Notes: generated from the sequence alone by a model not told the origin. DNA of 51,156 bases from Promethearchaeia archaeon (GCA_029856155.1 JAHQWL010000029.1:1-51156); one strand, 5' to 3'. Numbered from the stretch's first letter, positions 20,989-41,328 are shown. Numbers and translations are program-made.

Positions 20989-22299
20989 ATGAAATTTATG
21001 GGATTTAGAGAATATATAAATCAAATTGATGAGAAAGCACTTCTTCGAAATGTCAACATTGAGGTGTCGAAGAAATTAGAGATCTCTGGAATTTTAAAAG
21101 CGATTGAACCCACTCCTGTTATGTTTAATAACATAAAAGAATCAAAATTTCGTGTAATTGGTAATTTATTCTGTACAAAGAATGTAATTGCTTCATATTT
21201 CGGGGTAACTCCCGCAGATCTCATACCAATGCTCTCAAAGGCAATATCTAATCGTACAAAACCAGAAATTGTTACGAATGCTCCTTGTCAAGAAATTGTG
21301 GAAGCAAACGTCGAATTAAATAAAATTCCAATTTTGTTCCACTGTGAAAAAGATGGTGGAAATTATATCAGTTCTGCTGTTGTAGTCACCAGAGACCCTG
21401 ATTACGGCCAAAACTTAGACTTTCATCGAGCAATGCAATTTTCAAATGAAAAATTTGCTACTCGAATAGTTAAAGGACGTCATTTTTCCAAATTTTTAGA
21501 AAAGAATGGAGAATTAGAAGTTGCCTTTTGTATAGGAAATACTCCAAACATTCTTATTGCTGGAGCAACTTCTGTAGATATTGGTGTTGATGAATTAGAA
21601 ATAGCGAACGCTTTAGAACCTATTAAAGTTGTAAAAGCGAATTCTGTTGATCTTTTAGTACCCGCAGAAGCAGAATTTGTCTTGGAAGGTCGCGTTTATT
21701 TAGAAGAAAGGCACTCCGAAGGGCCTTTTGTTGATCTAACTGAAACTTATGATATGATTAGAGAAGAACCCGTTTTTGAAGTTAAAAAAATCACTCATAG
21801 AAAAGATGCAATTTGGCAAGCTTTATTACCAGGTGCTCTTGAACATAAGATATTGATGGGAATGCCTCGAGAACCTACTATTTTCAATAAAGTAAATGAA
21901 ATGGGTGTTAAGTGTCTTGATGTTAATATAAATCCCGGTGGATGCTCTTGGTTACACGCAGTTGTTCAGATTGATAAAAAAACTGAGGAGGACGGCAAAG
22001 AAGCAATAGAAGGAGCTTTTATAGGGCATACAAGCTGTAAACATGTTTTTATTGTTGATAACGATATCAATATTTATGATCCTTTATCTGTGGAGTGGGC
22101 GATGGCGACTCGCTTCCAAGGAGATAGCAGAATGATTATTAAAGATAAAGAACCAGGAAGCAGCTTAGATCCAAGCGCGGAACCAGGTACAAAAATGACA
22201 ACAAAAATAGGTTTTGATTTGACAAAACCACTAATTGTTAAAGGAAAAAATTTTGATATAGCAGAATTTCCTAAGGTGGACGTTAACAAATATTTATAA
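20989..22299 (+). CDS. UbiD-family decarboxylase, probable anhydromevalonate phosphate decarboxylase
   Basis: DGGNYIS, VPAEAEFVLEG, EGPFVD, VEWAMATR and SLDPS. It is adjacent to the AcnX subunits in the MVA operon. Confidence 0.88.
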   Translation: MKFMGFREYINQIDEKALLRNVNIEVSKKLEISGILKAIEPTPVMFNNIKESKFRVIGNLFCTKNVIASYFGVTPADLIPMLSKAISNRTKPEIVTNAPCQEIVEANVELNKIPILFHCEKDGGNYISSAVVVTRDPDYGQNLDFHRAMQFSNEKFATRIVKGRHFSKFLEKNGELEVAFCIGNTPNILIAGATSVDIGVDELEIANALEPIKVVKANSVDLLVPAEAEFVLEGRVYLEERHSEGPFVDLTETYDMIREEPVFEVKKITHRKDAIWQALLPGALEHKILMGMPREPTIFNKVNEMGVKCLDVNINPGGCSWLHAVVQIDKKTEEDGKEAIEGAFIGHTSCKHVFIVDNDINIYDPLSVEWAMATRFQGDSRMIIKDKEPGSSLDPSAEPGTKMTTKIGFDLTKPLIVKGKNFDIAEFPKVDVNKYL

Positions 22300-22317
22300 T
22301 ATAAGGAGTAAAATAAA

Positions 22318-23511
22318 ATGATATTAACATCAGAAGAACAAGATATGTTGGATGGTAAATACGGTAAAGCTGCCCAAAAATCTATGGAAATTTTAACCAC
22401 ATTGGGCGATATCTTTGAAGCTGAATGTATGGTTAATGTTTATGGTGTTCAAATAGCCGGGGTTTCATATGATAATCTTGGTGAAGCGGGTTTAGAATTC
22501 TTAAGTGAAATGGCAGAAGATGGAAAGGTTAGAGTCTTAGCAACTTTAAATCCTGCGGGAATGGATCGTGAAAATTGGCAAACTTTAGGGATTGATGAAG
22601 AATTTGCTAAAAATCAGAATCGAGCAATTAATGCGTTCGCTAAGATGGGCATAGTTACAACTTGTTCTTGTACACCATATTTAATTGGTAATACTCCTCA
22701 TTTTGGTCAACACATTGCTTGGGCTGAAAGTAGTGCGGTTTGTTATGCTAATTCTGTAATTGGTGCTCGAACTAATCGCGAGGGTGGACCAAGTGCTTTA
22801 GCATCTGCCATTACAGGGAAAACACCTAAATATGGGTATCATTTGGATGAAAATCGTCATGGGGAAGTTTTGATTAAAGTTGATGTTCCTGTTAAAGGTA
22901 CAGACGAATTTGGGGTATTAGGTAAAATAATTGGAGATAAATTGGTTGAATTAGGAAAGAAAATTCCATACATAACTGGAATTCCTAACGCAACTGTTGA
23001 AGAACTTAAGTCATTTTGTGCTTCTGTTGCGACTTATGGTGGAACTGCGTTATTTCATATGGAGGGAATAACTCCAGAATATAATAAATATCCTAAACCA
23101 AATGATATTATTCTTAAAATAGATCAAGATAATCTAGATAAAACGAGAATGGAACTTATTGATGATGATATTAAAATAGATTTTATTAGCATAGGGTGTC
23201 CTCATGCTTCAATTCACGAAATCGCAGAAATTGCGAACTTATTGAAGGGAAAAAAAGTAAAGAAAGAATTTTGGATTACAACAGCTCGACCTACAAAAAG
23301 AATTTCGGATGAAGCTGGTTATTCTAAAATAATTACGGATGCTGGAGCAAAATTTGCAGCAGATACATGCTGTGTTGTAGCTCCAATTAAAGGACGTTTT
23401 AAAGGAATTATGGTAGATTCAGCAAAAGCATGTTATTATGGTCGTGCAAAGAATAAATTTAAAGTAAAGATTGGATCAATTGAAAAATGCATTGAGGAGG
23501 CTATAAAATGA
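22318..23511 (+). CDS. aconitase X large subunit, probable phosphomevalonate dehydratase large subunit
   Basis: TLNPAG, CSCTPY, AWAESSAVCYANSVIGARTNREGG, IGCPHAS, DTCCVV and DSAKACYY. Confidence 0.92.
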   Translation: MILTSEEQDMLDGKYGKAAQKSMEILTTLGDIFEAECMVNVYGVQIAGVSYDNLGEAGLEFLSEMAEDGKVRVLATLNPAGMDRENWQTLGIDEEFAKNQNRAINAFAKMGIVTTCSCTPYLIGNTPHFGQHIAWAESSAVCYANSVIGARTNREGGPSALASAITGKTPKYGYHLDENRHGEVLIKVDVPVKGTDEFGVLGKIIGDKLVELGKKIPYITGIPNATVEELKSFCASVATYGGTALFHMEGITPEYNKYPKPNDIILKIDQDNLDKTRMELIDDDIKIDFISIGCPHASIHEIAEIANLLKGKKVKKEFWITTARPTKRISDEAGYSKIITDAGAKFAADTCCVVAPIKGRFKGIMVDSAKACYYGRAKNKFKVKIGSIEKCIEEAIK

Positions 23512-23897
23512 AGTTTGAAGGAAGGAAAATTTATAAGGGGATTGGTGAAGGAGAAGCAATTGTAACGAAAGATGCTATTTCATTTTATGGTGGTGTAGAT
23601 CCCGATACCGGTAAAGTTGTTGAGGTTGGGCACGAGTTAGAAGGTCAATCTCTCCGAGGAAAAGTTCTAGTTTTTCCAACCGGAAAAGGTTCTACAGTTG
23701 GATCATATACTATGTATAGAATGAAGAAAAACAATACCGCTCCAGTAGCAATTGTTAATAATCAAATTGATACAATCATAGCGGTTGGGTGTATAATCAG
23801 TGAAATTCCATGTGTTGACAAAATAGATATTAATAACATAAAGACTGGACAAAAAGTCATTGTTGATGGTTCAAAAGGCACTGTGGAGGTGAAATAA
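23508..23897 (+). CDS. aconitase X swivel (DUF126) subunit, phosphomevalonate dehydratase small subunit
   Basis: ISFYGGVDPDTG and GKVLVFPTGKGSTVGS. ATGA overlap with the large subunit. Confidence 0.92.
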   Translation: MKFEGRKIYKGIGEGEAIVTKDAISFYGGVDPDTGKVVEVGHELEGQSLRGKVLVFPTGKGSTVGSYTMYRMKKNNTAPVAIVNNQIDTIIAVGCIISEIPCVDKIDINNIKTGQKVIVDGSKGTVEVK

Positions 23898-24864
23898 ATG
23901 GGAACTGGAAAAGGATATGGAAAGACCATTCTTTTTGGCGAAATTTATATCCCCATTCGGGTGTAGACGCAATCATTTTGTAGTTTATGGTCTTCCAGCA
24001 ATCGCATCGGCGTTAGGATTTTTTACTACTGCAGATGTTAAAGTTGTGGAAGGACGCGGATGGTCTGTTGACGATCAGAGACCCGCAACACCAGGATACA
24101 AAAAAACGAAGTATAATGAGGCAATGCAATCAATTACAAATGTAATTAATCATTTAAAGATAGATATTGATAGTAAAAAGCTTGAAATAACATTTGGTGG
24201 TAATTTAATTGCTGCTAGTGGAGTTGGGGCTTCTGCCGCTCAATGCACATCTTTAGCTCGTGCCCTTAATAATAAATTTAATCTTAATCTAGATGATGAA
24301 AAGATAAACGAAGCAGCTTATGAAGGAGAAAAGGCTTACCATGGAACTCCTTCGGGCATCGATAATACCGCCTCTACTTATGGTGGTTTGATTTGGTTTG
24401 TTAAAAATTTGAGTGGGGGAAAAAATACTATGGACCTTTTAAGAATGCCAAAAAAGATGCCATTAGTTATAGCAAATTCAGGGATTACAGCCTCAACAAC
24501 AGAAGTAGTTGCTGATGTTCGAAGTTTAAAAGAGGAAAATCCAGAAAAATTTCAAAAAATCTTCAGTAAATATGAAAAATTAGCATATAAGGCAAAAAAT
24601 GCCTTACTTGAAGGGAATAGTGTCGCAACTGGAGCTTTAATGAATCAAAACCACAAATTACTTCAAGAGATCGCGGTTTCAGGAGAAGTAAACGATAAAT
24701 TGGTTGATATAGCGTTAAAAAATGGAGCAATAGGGGCTAAAGTAACTGGAACAGGTCGGGGTGGTTTGGTTATTTTTTTAGCTGAAAATGAAGAAATTCA
24801 AGAAAGGATTGCGAAAGCTATTGAAAAAGAAGGGTTTGATGCTTGGAGAACAATGATTGGATGA
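23898..24864 (+). CDS. mvk: mevalonate kinase, interrupted; join(23898..23942,23974..24864), 311 aa
   Basis: The ATG directly follows the upstream TAA. Exon 1 reads MGTGKGYGKTILFGE and exon 2 reads HFVVYGLPAIA..., continuing to GVGASAA, HGTPSGIDN and GAKVTGTGRGG. The track start at 23917 gives an N-terminus without the conserved motif. Confidence 0.9.
23943..23973 (+). other. candidate 31-nt bulge-helix-bulge (relaxed) mRNA intron in mvk
   Basis: Sequence ATTTATATCCCCATTCGGGTGTAGACGCAAT. It has a 9-bp internal stem (23944-52 with 23959-67), a central helix GGCG/CGCA and 3-nt bulges AA^A and AT^C. It contains an in-frame TAG, and removing it restores GE-H. Confidence 0.8.
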
Positions 24865-24877
24865 GTGTGAAATAAAA

Positions 24878-26770
24878 TTGAAAAGTAAAAATGAAATTAT
24901 TCTGTTAAAGTTAGGTGGAAGTTTATTAACTGATAAAAATAAACCTTTTTCTCTTAGGGAAGATATTTTAGAAAGTTGTCTCAATCAGATTATTGAAAGT
25001 AAAAAAGCAATCATTTTAATTCATGGAGGTGGATCTTTTGGGCATCCGATTGCTAAAAAATATCAAATTTCTCAAGGATTAAATGACTCCATAAAAGATC
25101 AAATTATAGGACTTTCCAAAACTCATAAAGCAATGAATGAATTTAATTCCATTATCATAAATAAAATGCTTGATAATGGTCGTTCAGCAATTTCCGTTCA
25201 AGCATCAAGTATTTTTATACAAGATTTTAATGAAATTATTTTTAAATCTATAGATCCTATTGAAAAGATGCTTGATCTCGGAATAATACCAGTCCTATAT
25301 GGTGATATTCTTCTGAGTTGGGATTCTTCATTTACAATTCTTTCTGGAGATCAAATTATTTTAAAATTATGTGAGAAGATTCAAAAATATAAAATCTCGA
25401 AAGTTATATTCGCAATTGAAGAAGATGGCATATATATCAAGGGCAATGGAAACGAAAAGCTGGCATTAAAATTAAGATCTAACGATTTGGTAGATTTAAA
25501 ATTAGCAGAATTAGATCAAAAAATTGATGTTACTGGAGGTATAAGAGGTAAACTAGAAACTATCAAAGAGATTATAAAACTTGGCATATCTGTTCAAATA
25601 ATTAATGGAATCAAAAATAAAAATATTCTTAAAGCTTTAAACAATGAATATTTAGAATGTACTAGTATTGAATCAACTTCTGAAAGAAAGATTGGGAACA
25701 ACATATATAATAGGAAGATAGAACACATAAAAATACCTTTAGTGCATAATGTGCAACATGTAAAGAACTATTTTGATGAGGTTAATCTAATTCATCATCC
25801 ACTACCAGAATATGAGTTAGAGGAAATTAATCTTTCTGTGGATTTCTTTAAAAAAAAAATATCAGCTCCTATATGTGTTTCAGCAATTACAGGAGGTCAT
25901 GAAATTTCTAAAGCAATTAATAATATCTTAGCAAACGCTGCAAGTTCAGAAAATATTATTATGAGTGTTGGTAGTCAAAGAATAGGATTAGAGGATCCTT
26001 CTACCGTTGATTCATTTAAAATTGTACGTGATATGGCACCTAATATTCCAGTAATAGGAAATTTAGGAATAGGACAGCTATGTGATCTCAATTTTAATAT
26101 AGATAATTTTAAGAATTGCATTGAGATGATTAATGCGGACGTAATGGCTATACACTTCAATGCTTTACATGAGCTTCTTCAAAGTGAAGGTAATATATCA
26201 TATAAAAATTTTGAGGAAAAATTTAAAGAAATAAGAAAAAATCTGAAAATTCCTATCATAGCTAAAGAAGTTGGAACAGGTTTTAATACAGATCTAGCTT
26301 TAAAGCTTGATTTACTAGGATTTGATGGATTTGATGTTGGAGGTTTAGGTGGCACAAATTTTGCTGCAATAGAGTCAATACGTGATGTAGACAGTTTTGA
26401 AGCATATACTCGAAAGATTGCAGACACTTTTTGTGAATGGGGTATTCCAACACCAGTTAGTATAATGAATGTTAGAAAAGTATCTAAAAAACTAATAATA
26501 GGGACAGGAGGATTGAGAACAGGTGTGGATATCGCCAAAGCAATTGTTTTAGGTGCTGATATTGGAGGATTTGCATTTAAATTTTTAAAAGCTGCCTGGC
26601 TAGATTATAAGAATAATTCTCAGTCGAATACAATCAAAGAAATAAAAACTTTGAAACAAGAATTAAGATCCTCATTATGGTTAATGAATGTTGAAAATAT
26701 TAATAAACTCAGGAGTAATAACGACAAGAGGGTTTTAGTGGGCGAATTATATCAATGGATAAATCAGTAA
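24878..26770 (+). CDS. isopentenyl phosphate kinase - type 2 IPP isomerase fusion
   Basis: N-half: KLGGSLLTDK, HGGGSFGH, PVLYGD, SGDQI and DVTGGIRGK. C-half: RKIEHI, AITGG, VGSQR, AKEVGTG, GGTNF, WGIPT and TGGLRTGVD. TTG at 24878 is the likely start (track start 24857). Confidence 0.92.
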   Translation: MKSKNEIILLKLGGSLLTDKNKPFSLREDILESCLNQIIESKKAIILIHGGGSFGHPIAKKYQISQGLNDSIKDQIIGLSKTHKAMNEFNSIIINKMLDNGRSAISVQASSIFIQDFNEIIFKSIDPIEKMLDLGIIPVLYGDILLSWDSSFTILSGDQIILKLCEKIQKYKISKVIFAIEEDGIYIKGNGNEKLALKLRSNDLVDLKLAELDQKIDVTGGIRGKLETIKEIIKLGISVQIINGIKNKNILKALNNEYLECTSIESTSERKIGNNIYNRKIEHIKIPLVHNVQHVKNYFDEVNLIHHPLPEYELEEINLSVDFFKKKISAPICVSAITGGHEISKAINNILANAASSENIIMSVGSQRIGLEDPSTVDSFKIVRDMAPNIPVIGNLGIGQLCDLNFNIDNFKNCIEMINADVMAIHFNALHELLQSEGNISYKNFEEKFKEIRKNLKIPIIAKEVGTGFNTDLALKLDLLGFDGFDVGGLGGTNFAAIESIRDVDSFEAYTRKIADTFCEWGIPTPVSIMNVRKVSKKLIIGTGGLRTGVDIAKAIVLGADIGGFAFKFLKAAWLDYKNNSQSNTIKEIKTLKQELRSSLWLMNVENINKLRSNNDKRVLVGELYQWINQ

Positions 26771-41134: not shown

Positions 41135-41328
41135 GACGTATCCGCGGCTGTTTCTTGCTTCAATTGAAGAAATTGAAGATTCAAGTGGCTAAAACATCAT
41201 GCCAAATAATTTTAAGAACTATTTTTATTTAACCTCCTTCAATTTTTTTTAAATTAATTATAAACTTGTTATAGTATACCAATTATTTAAAAAATTTTGA
41301 ACTCATAAAAAAGTTTGTAATGAGAAGA

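What the first reader, a model, noticed from the sequence alone, without database searches (positions are those of the whole stretch)
23898..23997. Candidate bulge-helix-bulge mRNA intron splitting the conserved motif of mevalonate kinase in an Asgard-like archaeon
Seen: the ATG at 23898 abuts the previous stop and reads MGTGKGYGKTILFGE. It then runs into 31 nt (23943-23973) that contain an in-frame TAG (23964-66) and shift the frame, after which HFVVYG resumes. Removing exactly these 31 nt restores the GHMP motif GKTILFGEHFVVYG and a 311-aa enzyme. The RNA folds independently of that argument. The intron stem UUUAUAUCC(23944-52)/GGGUGUAGA(23959-67) has 9 bp, three of them G-U, so it works as plus-strand RNA rather than as a DNA palindrome. 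The central helix GGCG(23937-40)/CGCA(23968-71) has three G-C pairs and a terminal G.A. The bulges are AAA(23941-43) and AUC(23972-74). An exon-exon helix AAGACCAU(23922-29)/AUGGUCUU(23987-94) closes the structure. Established: the archaeal tRNA-splicing endonuclease EndA cuts after the second nucleotide of each 3-nt bulge. That gives 23942/43 and 23973/74, exactly the boundaries required by protein homology. BHB introns in mRNAs are known mainly from crenarchaeal cbf5. Inference: this is an endonuclease/RtcB-spliced mRNA intron in a core lipid-synthesis gene. Splicing would be required for activity, could act as a post-transcriptional switch on the MVA pathway (conceptually like Ire1/HAC1-XBP1 splicing), and suggests a class of Asgard mRNA introns mis-annotated as frameshifts or false starts. 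The helix next to the 3' bulge is weak, so the motif is relaxed (HBh'/BHL) rather than strict.
Basis: partly seen in the sequence, partly recalled or inferred. Interest (0 to 1): 0.95.

Follow-up and report, generated by a model that had tools for sequence, protein, structure and literature searches.

The report
tRNA-type mini-intron in Asgard mevalonate kinase
The only mevalonate kinase gene of this Asgard (Promethearchaeota) archaeon is broken inside its active-site motif by a 31-base insert shaped like an archaeal tRNA intron, so the enzyme can almost certainly be made only after the mRNA is cut and rejoined, which papers I could search confirm for only one other archaeal protein gene (cbf5).

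Summary
Observation confirmed at the stated coordinates. Exon 1 (23898-23942, 15 codons) and exon 2 (23974-24864, 296 codons) are separated by 31 nt (23943-23973) carrying an in-frame TAG. Removing exactly these bases restores GKTILFGE|HFVVYG and a 311-aa mevalonate kinase, the only copy in the genome.

It is not an artefact: the identical insert occurs in five independent assemblies. It is not decay: 38 of 83 distinct Promethearchaeota orthologues carry a 30-31 nt insert at the same site, each with a stop in the exon-1 frame, while the gene stays under purifying selection (exon 2 dN/dS 0.12).

The proposed RNA structure is supported by compensatory changes and by synonymous-codon constraints seen only in intron-bearing lineages. 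The other 45 orthologues have exactly the junction predicted by the bulge cut sites.

The genome encodes an alpha/beta EndA pair and RtcB. At least two further genes here are split by 30-nt inserts of the same geometry.

The best reading is an EndA/RtcB-spliced, relaxed bulge-helix-bulge mRNA intron. No RNA data could be obtained, so excision is inferred. The regulatory-switch idea is untested.

This scan has already noted the same mvk intron in at least seven other genomes. I found no paper describing it.

The parts
23898..23942 (+). mvk exon 1: start codon plus 14 codons, MGTGKGYGKTILFGE
   Evidence: The peptide xGxGKGYGKTILFGE is conserved in intron-bearing and intron-less orthologues. pN/pS is 0.038 over the last 8 codons among intron-bearing sequences.
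23943..23973 (+). 31-nt intron with in-frame TAG at 23964-66
   Evidence: A same-site 30-31 nt insert occurs in 38 orthologues, all with a stop in the exon-1 frame. It is unique in the genome and identical in 5 independent assemblies.
23974..24864 (+). mvk exon 2: 296 codons plus TGA
   Evidence: TIGR00549, 204 bits, profile positions 11-276. dN/dS is 0.116 among intron-bearing orthologues.
23937..23940 (+). 5' strand of the central 4-bp helix (GGCG, the last exon-1 bases before the bulge). It pairs with 23968-23971.
   Evidence: C39-G69 changes to U-A in 4 sequences and to U-G in 1. G37 faces U in 13 of 37 sequences and A in the rest.
23941..23943 (+). 5' bulge AAA; predicted cut at 23942/23943
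   Evidence: Geometry. The cut rule (between the 2nd and 3rd bulge residues) is stated in PMC2738675.
23944..23967 (+). Intron hairpin: 9-bp stem (23944-52 / 23959-67) and 6-nt loop
   Evidence: Four stem pairs show changes on both sides.
23968..23971 (+). 3' strand of the central helix (CGCA, inside the intron)
23972..23974 (+). 3' bulge AUC; predicted cut at 23973/23974. Not closed by a stable adjacent helix, so the motif is relaxed.
   Evidence: Only U23936-A23975 can pair next to it. The Phe codon is TTT in 38/38 intron-bearing orthologues against 12/35 intron-less ones.
23922..23929 (+). 5' strand of the exon-exon helix (AAGACCAU). It pairs with 23987-23994.
   Evidence: Pairing is 97.4% in intron-bearing against 65.7% in intron-less orthologues. 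Ensemble probability is 0.83.
23987..23994 (+). 3' strand of the exon-exon helix (AUGGUCUU)
   Evidence: Same as above. In intron-bearing lineages Gly is GGT in 34/38 and Leu is CTT in 36/38.
23917..24864 (+). Mechanical 315-aa ORF that reads through the intron in the exon-2 frame. This is the form called in public protein sets and is a false start.
   Evidence: In 16 of 38 relatives this frame is blocked by a stop inside the intron, and in 8 the stop lies directly before the junction.
20989..23897 (+). Upstream operon genes: UbiD-type decarboxylase, AcnX large subunit and AcnX swivel subunit
24857..26770 (+). Downstream gene: amino-acid-kinase-fold domain (isopentenyl phosphate kinase-like) fused to an FMN-dependent domain. 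Its start overlaps the mvk stop.

Best explanation
23943-23973 is a tRNA-type (bulge-helix-bulge class, relaxed HBh'/BHL form) intron in the mRNA of the only mevalonate kinase gene.

Proposed mechanism:
1. The operon transcript folds so that an 8-bp exon-exon helix (23922-29/23987-94) brings the two junctions together.
2. A 4-bp central helix forms between the last exon-1 bases (GGCG) and the intron's 3' part (CGCA). It is flanked by the 3-nt bulge AAA and a 9-bp intron hairpin on one side and by AUC on the other.
3. The heterotetrameric (alpha-beta)2 splicing endonuclease cuts between the 2nd and 3rd residue of each bulge, at 23942/43 and 23973/74.
4. RtcB joins the exons, and the 31-nt intron is probably released as a circle.
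5. Only the spliced mRNA encodes the 311-aa enzyme with the intact GKTILFGEHFVVYG motif.

Shown here: the anatomy, conservation, covariation, exon-side constraints, precise loss in relatives, and the presence of the enzymes. Inferred: that cutting and ligation happen, and which enzymes perform them.
For: 1. Boundaries. Only removal of exactly 23943-23973 restores GE|HF. This is the junction found in all 45 intron-less orthologues and in solved mevalonate kinases, e.g. 2HFS, which aligns at 1.3e-70 across the junction. The same boundaries follow independently from the cut rule for BHB bulges (PMC2738675).

2. Conservation. 38 of 83 distinct orthologues carry a 30-31 nt insert at this site. All 38 have a stop in the exon-1 frame inside it, and 16 also have one in the exon-2 frame.

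3. Structure. 88.9% of cells pair in register, against 36-45% when slid. 24 cells show changes on both sides (0/500 shuffles reach this). In the central helix C-G changes to U-A in 4 sequences and to the U-G intermediate in 1. Four intron-stem pairs covary. RNAalifold independently predicts the central helix, the 3-nt bulge and the exon helix.

4. Exon constraint tied to the intron:
- Exon helix paired 97.4% in intron-bearing against 65.7% in intron-less orthologues.
- Thr ACC 32/38 against 0/35.
- Phe TTT 38/38 against 12/35.
- The Gly codon in the central helix is only GGC or GGT when the intron is present.

5. The gene is alive. Exon 2 dN/dS is 0.116 at dS about 1.3, and exon 1 pN/pS is 0.038. 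It is the single mvk in a 97% complete genome and sits inside a tight mevalonate-pathway operon.

6. Not an artefact or a repeat. The insert is identical in 5 independent assemblies and has no other copy in the genome.

7. Machinery.
- EndA alpha: 198 aa, 1e-34 to Aeropyrum 3P1Z_B, with the Y/H/K positions aligned to identical residues and the KPR-containing N-terminal loop aligned without gaps.
- A second paralogue of 202 aa in which Asp-Ser replaces the aligned Glu-His.
- RtcB.
- PMC5829648 reports (alpha-beta)2 EndA with the broad-specificity L1 loop in Asgard archaea.

8. History. The intron sits on the basal branches of the 71-row clade. The gene tree rejects a single intron-bearing clade (AU p 1e-40), which means repeated precise removal, as published for cbf5.

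9. Same geometry elsewhere in this genome. A Roadblock/LC7 gene and a nucleoside-phosphorylase-family gene are each split by 30-nt inserts within one Pfam domain or architecture.
Against:
- The 3' bulge lacks a stable adjoining helix. Only one U-A pair is followed by U.U oppositions, so the strict hBHBh' definition is not met.
- The outermost central-helix pair is G.A here.
- Thermodynamically the BHB fold is 3.8 kcal/mol above the MFE. A competing hairpin pairs GCGAAA with 23976-81, and the central helix has ensemble probability 0.33.
- Much of the exon-side conservation could in part reflect shared ancestry, since relatives are not independent.
- The group used in the AU test was defined after the tree was seen.
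Confidence: 0.85

Rival explanations
1. The insert is not removed. The functional product is the 315-aa protein that starts at ATG 23917 and reads through the insert in the exon-2 frame, as gene callers annotate it.
For: In this genome that frame is open from 23917. Public protein sets hold this form.
Against: - In 16 of 38 relatives the exon-2 frame has a stop inside the insert, and in 8 it lies directly before the junction.
- Exon 1 stays under strong protein-level selection in its own frame (pN/pS 0.038).
- The insert varies in the pattern of an RNA helix, not of codons.
- The read-through product lacks GKTILFGE, which aligns without a break in solved kinases.
Confidence: 0.04
2. The gene is a pseudogene, or the insert is a sequencing or assembly error or a recent mobile-element insertion.
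For: The reading frame is interrupted by a stop and shifted.
Against: - The insert is identical in five independent assemblies from different samples and pipelines.
- The same site is occupied in 38 diverged orthologues (dS about 1.3) with dN/dS 0.116.
- This is the only mvk in the genome.
- There is no other copy of the insert in the genome.
Confidence: 0.02
3. The ribosome skips the 31 nt (translational bypassing as in phage T4 gene 60) or shifts frame across it.
For: A hairpin follows the last exon-1 codon, and a stop lies downstream in frame.
Against: - There are no matched take-off and landing codons. GAA precedes the gap, while AAT, TAT, TAA, TAG or AAA precedes the CAT.
- The 30-nt inserts are in frame and still carry stops.
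- A frameshift would put about 10 unconserved residues inside the GE|H motif.
- Covariation in the central helix and the exon-exon helix has no role in bypassing.
Confidence: 0.03
4. The insert is excised from the RNA, but by something other than EndA/RtcB, such as another nuclease/ligase pair or self-cleavage.
For: The 3' half of the motif is weak and the BHB is not the MFE. No enzymology was possible.
Against: The boundaries fall exactly between bulge residues 2 and 3 on both sides of a covarying 4-bp helix. That is the specific signature of the splicing endonuclease. At 31 nt the insert seems to me far too small for a group I or II intron (my knowledge; not checked against Rfam).
Confidence: 0.05

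Closest known systems
cbf5 (pseudouridine synthase) pre-mRNA intron of Crenarchaeota (Watanabe 2002; Yoshinari 2006; Yokobori 2009, PMC2738675)
   Same: - A short intron inside an archaeal protein-coding sequence.
- Bounded by a relaxed BHB-like motif.
- Exon borders lie between bulge residues 2 and 3.
- Host has a hetero-oligomeric endonuclease.
- Lineage-specific precise losses.
- Routinely mis-annotated.
   Different: Different gene (mevalonate kinase), different site and different phylum (Promethearchaeota, Asgard). cbf5 in this genome is one uninterrupted 343-aa frame. Splicing of cbf5 was shown by cDNA and in vitro cleavage; here it is inferred.
Archaeal pre-tRNA and pre-rRNA BHB introns cut by EndA and joined by RtcB
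   Same: - Central 4-bp helix, 3-nt bulges and an intron hairpin.
- Size matches tRNA introns of this genome: 31-33 nt are among those ARAGORN finds.
- The enzyme set is present.
   Different: The substrate is an mRNA with no tRNA body. The 3' bulge is not closed by an adjacent helix; a distal 8-bp exon-exon helix appears to stand in for it.
HAC1/XBP1 unconventional mRNA splicing in eukaryotes (Ire1 cleavage, RtcB or Trl1 ligation)
   Same: A cytoplasmic, spliceosome-independent excision of a short mRNA segment with RtcB-type ligation, which changes the reading frame of the product (established knowledge; RtcB and HAC1 are cited in PMC5829648).
   Different: The nuclease (Ire1) and the recognition motif (paired stem-loops) are different. 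Regulation by stress is demonstrated there and is untested here.

Membership tests
Archaeal BHB-type (splicing-endonuclease) intron | Central 4-bp helix with a 3-nt bulge on the 5' strand, followed by an intron helix (the HBh' half) | tested here: met
   GGCG/CGCA (3 Watson-Crick pairs plus G.A; G-U in 13 of 37 relatives), bulge AAA and a 9-bp stem. C-G changes to U-A in 4 sequences.
Archaeal BHB-type (splicing-endonuclease) intron | A second 3-nt bulge on the opposite strand, closed by an adjoining exon helix (strict hBHBh') | tested here: not met
   Next to AUC only U23936-A23975 can pair, followed by U.U oppositions. The 8-bp exon helix lies 7 and 12 nt away. The motif is therefore relaxed (HBh'/BHL), a form that PMC5829648 says only (alpha-beta)2 and epsilon2 endonucleases cut.
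Archaeal BHB-type (splicing-endonuclease) intron | Exon-intron borders lie between the 2nd and 3rd residue of each bulge | tested here: met
   The predicted cuts at 23942/43 and 23973/74 are the only boundaries that restore GE|HF. The rule is stated in PMC2738675. Intron-less orthologues have exactly this junction.
Archaeal BHB-type (splicing-endonuclease) intron | Host encodes a splicing endonuclease able to cut relaxed motifs, and an RNA ligase | tested here: met
   Two PF01974 genes. The alpha subunit resembles Aeropyrum 3P1Z_B (1e-34), with the catalytic Y/H/K positions and the N-terminal loop aligned. The second paralogue has lost the His. RtcB scores 570 bits.
Archaeal BHB-type (splicing-endonuclease) intron | The intron is actually excised and the exons ligated in RNA | not testable with these tools
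No spliced-form contig carrying the intron-lineage exon signature was found in JGI metagenome contigs.
Mevalonate kinase (TIGR00549, GHMP kinase superfamily) | Equivalog score above the curated cut-off, and the N-terminal GKxILFGEH motif | tested here: met
   Exon 2 alone scores 204 bits against a cut-off of 163, starting at profile position 11. The motif is completed by exon 1 after removal of the insert. The full-length intron-less orthologue aligns end to end with solved kinases.
Programmed translational bypass (T4 gene 60 type) | Matching take-off and landing codons flanking the skipped segment | tested here: not met
   The take-off codon would be GAA. The codon before the resume site is AAT here and TAT, TAA, TAG or AAA in relatives.

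The most novel reading that the evidence does not exclude
Splicing of mvk, and of the many other mini-intron genes of these archaea, may be rate-limiting and regulated. EndA/RtcB activity would then gate entry into isoprenoid lipid synthesis. This would make Asgard archaea users of a widespread, regulated, spliceosome-independent mRNA-splicing layer that foreshadows eukaryotic HAC1/XBP1-type splicing. The intron lies only 45 nt from the start codon, and a competing non-BHB fold exists, which would allow competition between translation and splicing.
Probability: 0.12. Interest if true: 0.92.

Novelty: new member of a known kind. Interest (0 to 1): 0.75.

Why it matters
In the papers I could search, splicing inside an archaeal coding sequence by the tRNA-splicing enzymes is confirmed for one gene only (cbf5, Crenarchaeota). 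PMC2738675 states that other cases were only predicted.

Here an enzyme of the mevalonate pathway for membrane-lipid precursors cannot be made from the genomic reading frame. The organisms are the archaeal phylum closest to eukaryotes. The intron has been kept, with its RNA structure, across deep divergence.

This matters in three ways:
- Annotation: public protein sets carry a 315-aa false start.
- Metabolic reconstruction of Asgard genomes.
- How exon sequences are shaped by splicing signals. The synonymous-site constraint seen only in intron-bearing lineages is a clean natural experiment.

It also gives a concrete, short substrate for testing mRNA splicing by an Asgard endonuclease.

Tried and rejected
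- Spliced junction in metagenomes: I searched JGI metagenome contigs for the spliced junction with the exon codon signature of intron-bearing lineages and got 0 hits. This is uninformative about RNA. It does show that no intron-less DNA with that signature is held there.
- Spliced-form proteins: I looked for 311-aa forms in the 90% clusters of intron-bearing proteins. The window's own cluster holds only 315-aa read-through forms. The 311-aa members of other clusters differ in sequence, and several of them, including forms with the same N-terminus as the short-contig ones, come from 10-36 kb MAG contigs; I take them for intron-less lineages, not cDNA (nucleotides and sample types not checked).
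- Genome-wide scan for BHB-bounded inserts that join two open frames, with a mirror-geometry control:
  - At loose settings real and mirror counts are equal (12,096 against 11,906; 7,353 against 7,249). Adding a codon-usage filter did not separate them either.
  - Only for L = 30-33, a perfect stem and a 4/4 central helix is there an excess (16 against 5).
  - The scan has low power in a 30% G+C genome and gives no intron count. It did recover the mvk intron and two verifiable further cases.
- Mobile or repeated element: BLAST of the insert against the genome found no other copy.
- Thermodynamics alone: the BHB is not the MFE, so the energy argument by itself does not carry the case. Covariation does.
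- Rejected readings (see rivals): read-through 315-aa protein, pseudogene or artefact, translational bypass or frameshift.
- Split protein: also considered and rejected. The exon-1 frame would give a 22-aa peptide, and in the 8 relatives with a stop directly before the junction exon 2 has no upstream start in its frame.

Full report
**What is there**

- The upstream AcnX swivel-subunit gene ends with TAA at 23895-97. ATG 23898 follows directly and reads MGTGKGYGKTILFGE up to 23942.
- The next 31 nt (23943-23973) carry TAG at 23964-66 in that frame and shift the frame by one.
- From 23974 the sequence reads HFVVYGLPAIA... for 296 codons to TGA 24862-64.
- Exon 2 alone scores 204 bits on TIGR00549 mevalonate kinase (cut-off 163). 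The match starts at profile position 11, so the first ten positions are missing from it.
- An intron-less orthologue read by reference aligns end to end with solved mevalonate kinases. The best is 2HFS at 1.3e-70, with ...GKVILFGEHFVVHG... unbroken.
- Shifting the removed segment by one base in either direction gives GDH or GEN instead of GEH. The boundaries are therefore fixed by homology.
- This is the only mevalonate kinase in a 97% complete, 4.1-Mb genome. The other four matches are distant GHMP kinases at E of 3e-8 or worse.
- The gene lies in a tightly packed operon: UbiD-type decarboxylase, AcnX large and swivel subunits, mvk, then a fused kinase/FMN-domain gene.

**Not an artefact**

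- The 90% cluster of the protein called on this locus holds five distinct 315-aa sequences. All read through the insert, starting MERPF.LAKFISPFGCRRNHFVVYG.
- I fetched five contigs from ENA, Logan and JGI assemblies of different samples. They carry the identical 31 nt. Two of them have one synonymous change in exon 1.
- BLAST of the insert against the genome finds no second copy.

**Relatives**

- Named records place the relatives in Promethearchaeota (Lokiarchaeia-type Asgard archaea).
- From 54 genomes of the genus and 55 further loci I obtained 83 distinct orthologues. 38 carry a 30- or 31-nt insert at exactly this site. 45 have none and read GAR|CAY.
- All 38 inserts have a stop in the exon-1 frame. 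16 also have one in the exon-2 frame, and in 8 of these it lies directly before the junction. A read-through protein like the one annotated here is impossible in those species.
- Among intron-bearing sequences exon 2 has a median dN/dS of 0.116 at dS of about 1.3. The last eight codons of exon 1 have pN/pS of 0.038.
- The exon-1 peptide is the same in both groups.
- The gene has therefore been maintained as a coding gene, in two pieces, for a long time.

**RNA structure**

- 88.9% of cells pair, against 36-45% when the 3' partners are slid by one to three columns.
- 24 cells show changes on both sides, and 0 of 500 shuffles reach this.
- In the central helix C23939-G23969 becomes U-A in four sequences and U-G in one. 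G23938-C23970 becomes G-U in two.
- The outermost position is G.A here and G-U in 13 of 37 sequences.
- Four pairs of the intron stem covary.
- RNAalifold independently returns the exon helix, the three inner central pairs, the 3-nt bulge and the stem.
- The cut rule, between the second and third bulge residues, is stated in PMC2738675. It places the cuts at 23942/43 and 23973/74, the same boundaries that homology requires.

**Exon-side constraint**

This is the most telling result. All sequences encode the same GKTILFGE, except one intron-bearing sequence with GKIILFGE, but the synonymous sites differ by intron state.

| Feature | Intron-bearing | Intron-less |
|---|---|---|
| 8-bp exon-exon helix paired | 97.4% | 65.7% |
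| Thr codon ACC | 32/38 | 0/35 |
| Gly codon GGT (exon 2) | 34/38 | 5/35 |
| Leu codon CTT (exon 2) | 36/38 | 7/35 |
| Gly codon in the central helix | GGC or GGT only | all four codons |
| Phe codon next to the central helix, TTT | 38/38 | 12/35 |

- The Phe result fits a U23936-A23975 pair closing the 3' bulge.
- Relatives are not independent, so these counts overstate the case.
- However, the intron-less state arose several times. The quick gene tree needs at least six changes on well-supported branches, and the intron sits on the basal branches of the 71-row clade.
- An AU test rejects a single intron-bearing clade (delta lnL 253, p 1e-40). The caveat is that I named the group after seeing the tree.
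- Because the inserts are homologous (shared ...AAACGCAAU end), repeated precise loss is the economical reading, as published for cbf5.
- Precise loss at exactly the predicted ligation junction is itself indirect evidence that a spliced RNA exists.

**Weak points of the motif**

- The 3' bulge AUC has no stable adjoining helix. After one U-A pair there are four U.U oppositions, and the 8-bp exon helix lies 7 and 12 nt away.
- On the 79-nt transcript the BHB fold (-18.1 kcal/mol) is above the MFE (-21.9). The MFE extends the hairpin by pairing GCGAAA with 23976-81.
- The central helix has ensemble probability 0.33 here and a mean of 0.36 over the 38 relatives. The exon helix has 0.83.
- The energy argument alone would not carry the case.

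**Machinery**

- The genome has two PF01974 genes.
- One (198 aa) matches the catalytic alpha subunit of Aeropyrum pernix EndA (3P1Z_B, 1e-34). The Tyr, His and Lys positions are aligned to identical residues, and the KPR-containing N-terminal loop aligns without gaps.
- The other (202 aa) matches M. jannaschii EndA, but Asp-Ser replaces the aligned Glu-His. It looks like a structural beta subunit.
- RtcB is present at 570 bits.
- PMC5829648 reports that Asgard archaea have (alpha-beta)2 EndA with the L1 loop, and that only such broad-specificity enzymes cut relaxed motifs.

**Is it one of a class?**

- My motif scan of the whole genome, with a mirror-geometry control, has little power at 30% G+C. 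Loose settings give equal counts.
- At 30-33 nt with a perfect stem and a 4/4 central helix there are 16 real hits against 5 mirror hits.
- Two of the real hits are verifiable:
  - A Roadblock/LC7 gene (C72, insert 106002-106031). Its two pieces match Pfam profile positions 2-35 and 42-90.
  - A nucleoside-phosphorylase-family gene (C98, insert 57026-57055). It is split between its N-terminal bundle and position 11 of the catalytic domain.
- A third hit (C44, 81452-81481, AIR-synthase-related) is only half supported.
- ARAGORN finds only 23 tRNA genes, 11 of them with introns. This fits the report that Asgard tRNA genes are heavily interrupted (bioRxiv 10.64898/2026.10.13.758758).
- cbf5, the one published case, is uninterrupted here.

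**Known or new**

- Full-text searches found no paper on an intron in an archaeal mevalonate kinase, nor on BHB introns in Asgard protein-coding genes.
- PMC2738675 states that splicing was confirmed for no gene other than cbf5.
- This scan has noted the same mvk intron in at least seven other genomes, and many other mini-introns in Asgard genomes. I treated those notes as leads and repeated the tests on this locus.
- The kind (endonuclease-type intron in an mRNA) is known. This is a new member in a new gene and phylum.

**Verdict**

- An EndA/RtcB-spliced relaxed BHB intron, confidence about 0.85.
- The regulatory-switch idea is untested.

Noticed in passing
G000 C72:106002-106031 (+) = L117:165-194: A Roadblock/LC7 gene is split by a 30-nt insert with BHB geometry (central helix ACGU/GCGU). 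The two pieces match Pfam PF03259 profile positions 2-35 and 42-90.
   Followed up: partly
G000 C98:57026-57055 (+) = L118:537-566: A thymidine/AMP-phosphorylase-family gene is split by a 30-nt insert with BHB geometry. The split falls between the N-terminal helical bundle and position 11 of the catalytic domain (junction ...DKHS|TGGV...).
   Followed up: partly
G000 C44:81452-81481 (+) = L116:500-529: Candidate 30-nt BHB-bounded insert in an AIR-synthase-related gene. Exon 2 starts at profile position 43 of PF00586, but exon 1 gave no Pfam hit.
   Followed up: partly
whole genome G000: ARAGORN finds only 23 tRNA genes in a 97% complete genome, 11 of them with introns of 9-529 nt. Most tRNA genes are probably hidden by non-canonical or multiple introns.
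   Followed up: no
G000 C83:46113-46454 (-): cbf5 (TruB_N), the only archaeal gene with published mRNA splicing, is one uninterrupted 343-aa frame in this genome.
   Followed up: partly
window 24857-26770 (+): The gene after mvk is a 637-aa fusion of an amino-acid-kinase-fold domain (isopentenyl phosphate kinase-like) with an FMN-dependent domain (type 2 IDI-like). Its TTG start overlaps the mvk stop.
   Followed up: partly
L009-L013, L016, L021, L022, L039-L045 and others, upstream of mvk: In about half of the intron-bearing species mvk is not preceded by the AcnX swivel gene. Instead it follows a different, AT-rich spacer with GGTGA and a TTG start (TTG in 19 of 38). All intron-less species seen in the genus keep the AcnX-mvk junction.
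   Followed up: no
window 23938-23981 (+): A competing fold extends the intron hairpin by pairing GCGAAA (23938-43) with 23976-81. This would bury the 5' cut site. It is the predicted MFE and could compete with the splicing-competent fold.
   Followed up: partly
window 41135-41242 (-): Another first-reader note proposes a 42-nt intron at 41186-41227 at the 5' end of a gene. I read the sequence and saw no obvious BHB, but ran no test.
   Followed up: no
L019, L053, L095 (relatives): Three orthologues have a 30-nt rather than 31-nt insert. These are in frame but still carry a stop. The length difference lies in the hairpin or at its 5' base (L019), not in the central helix or bulges.
   Followed up: partly
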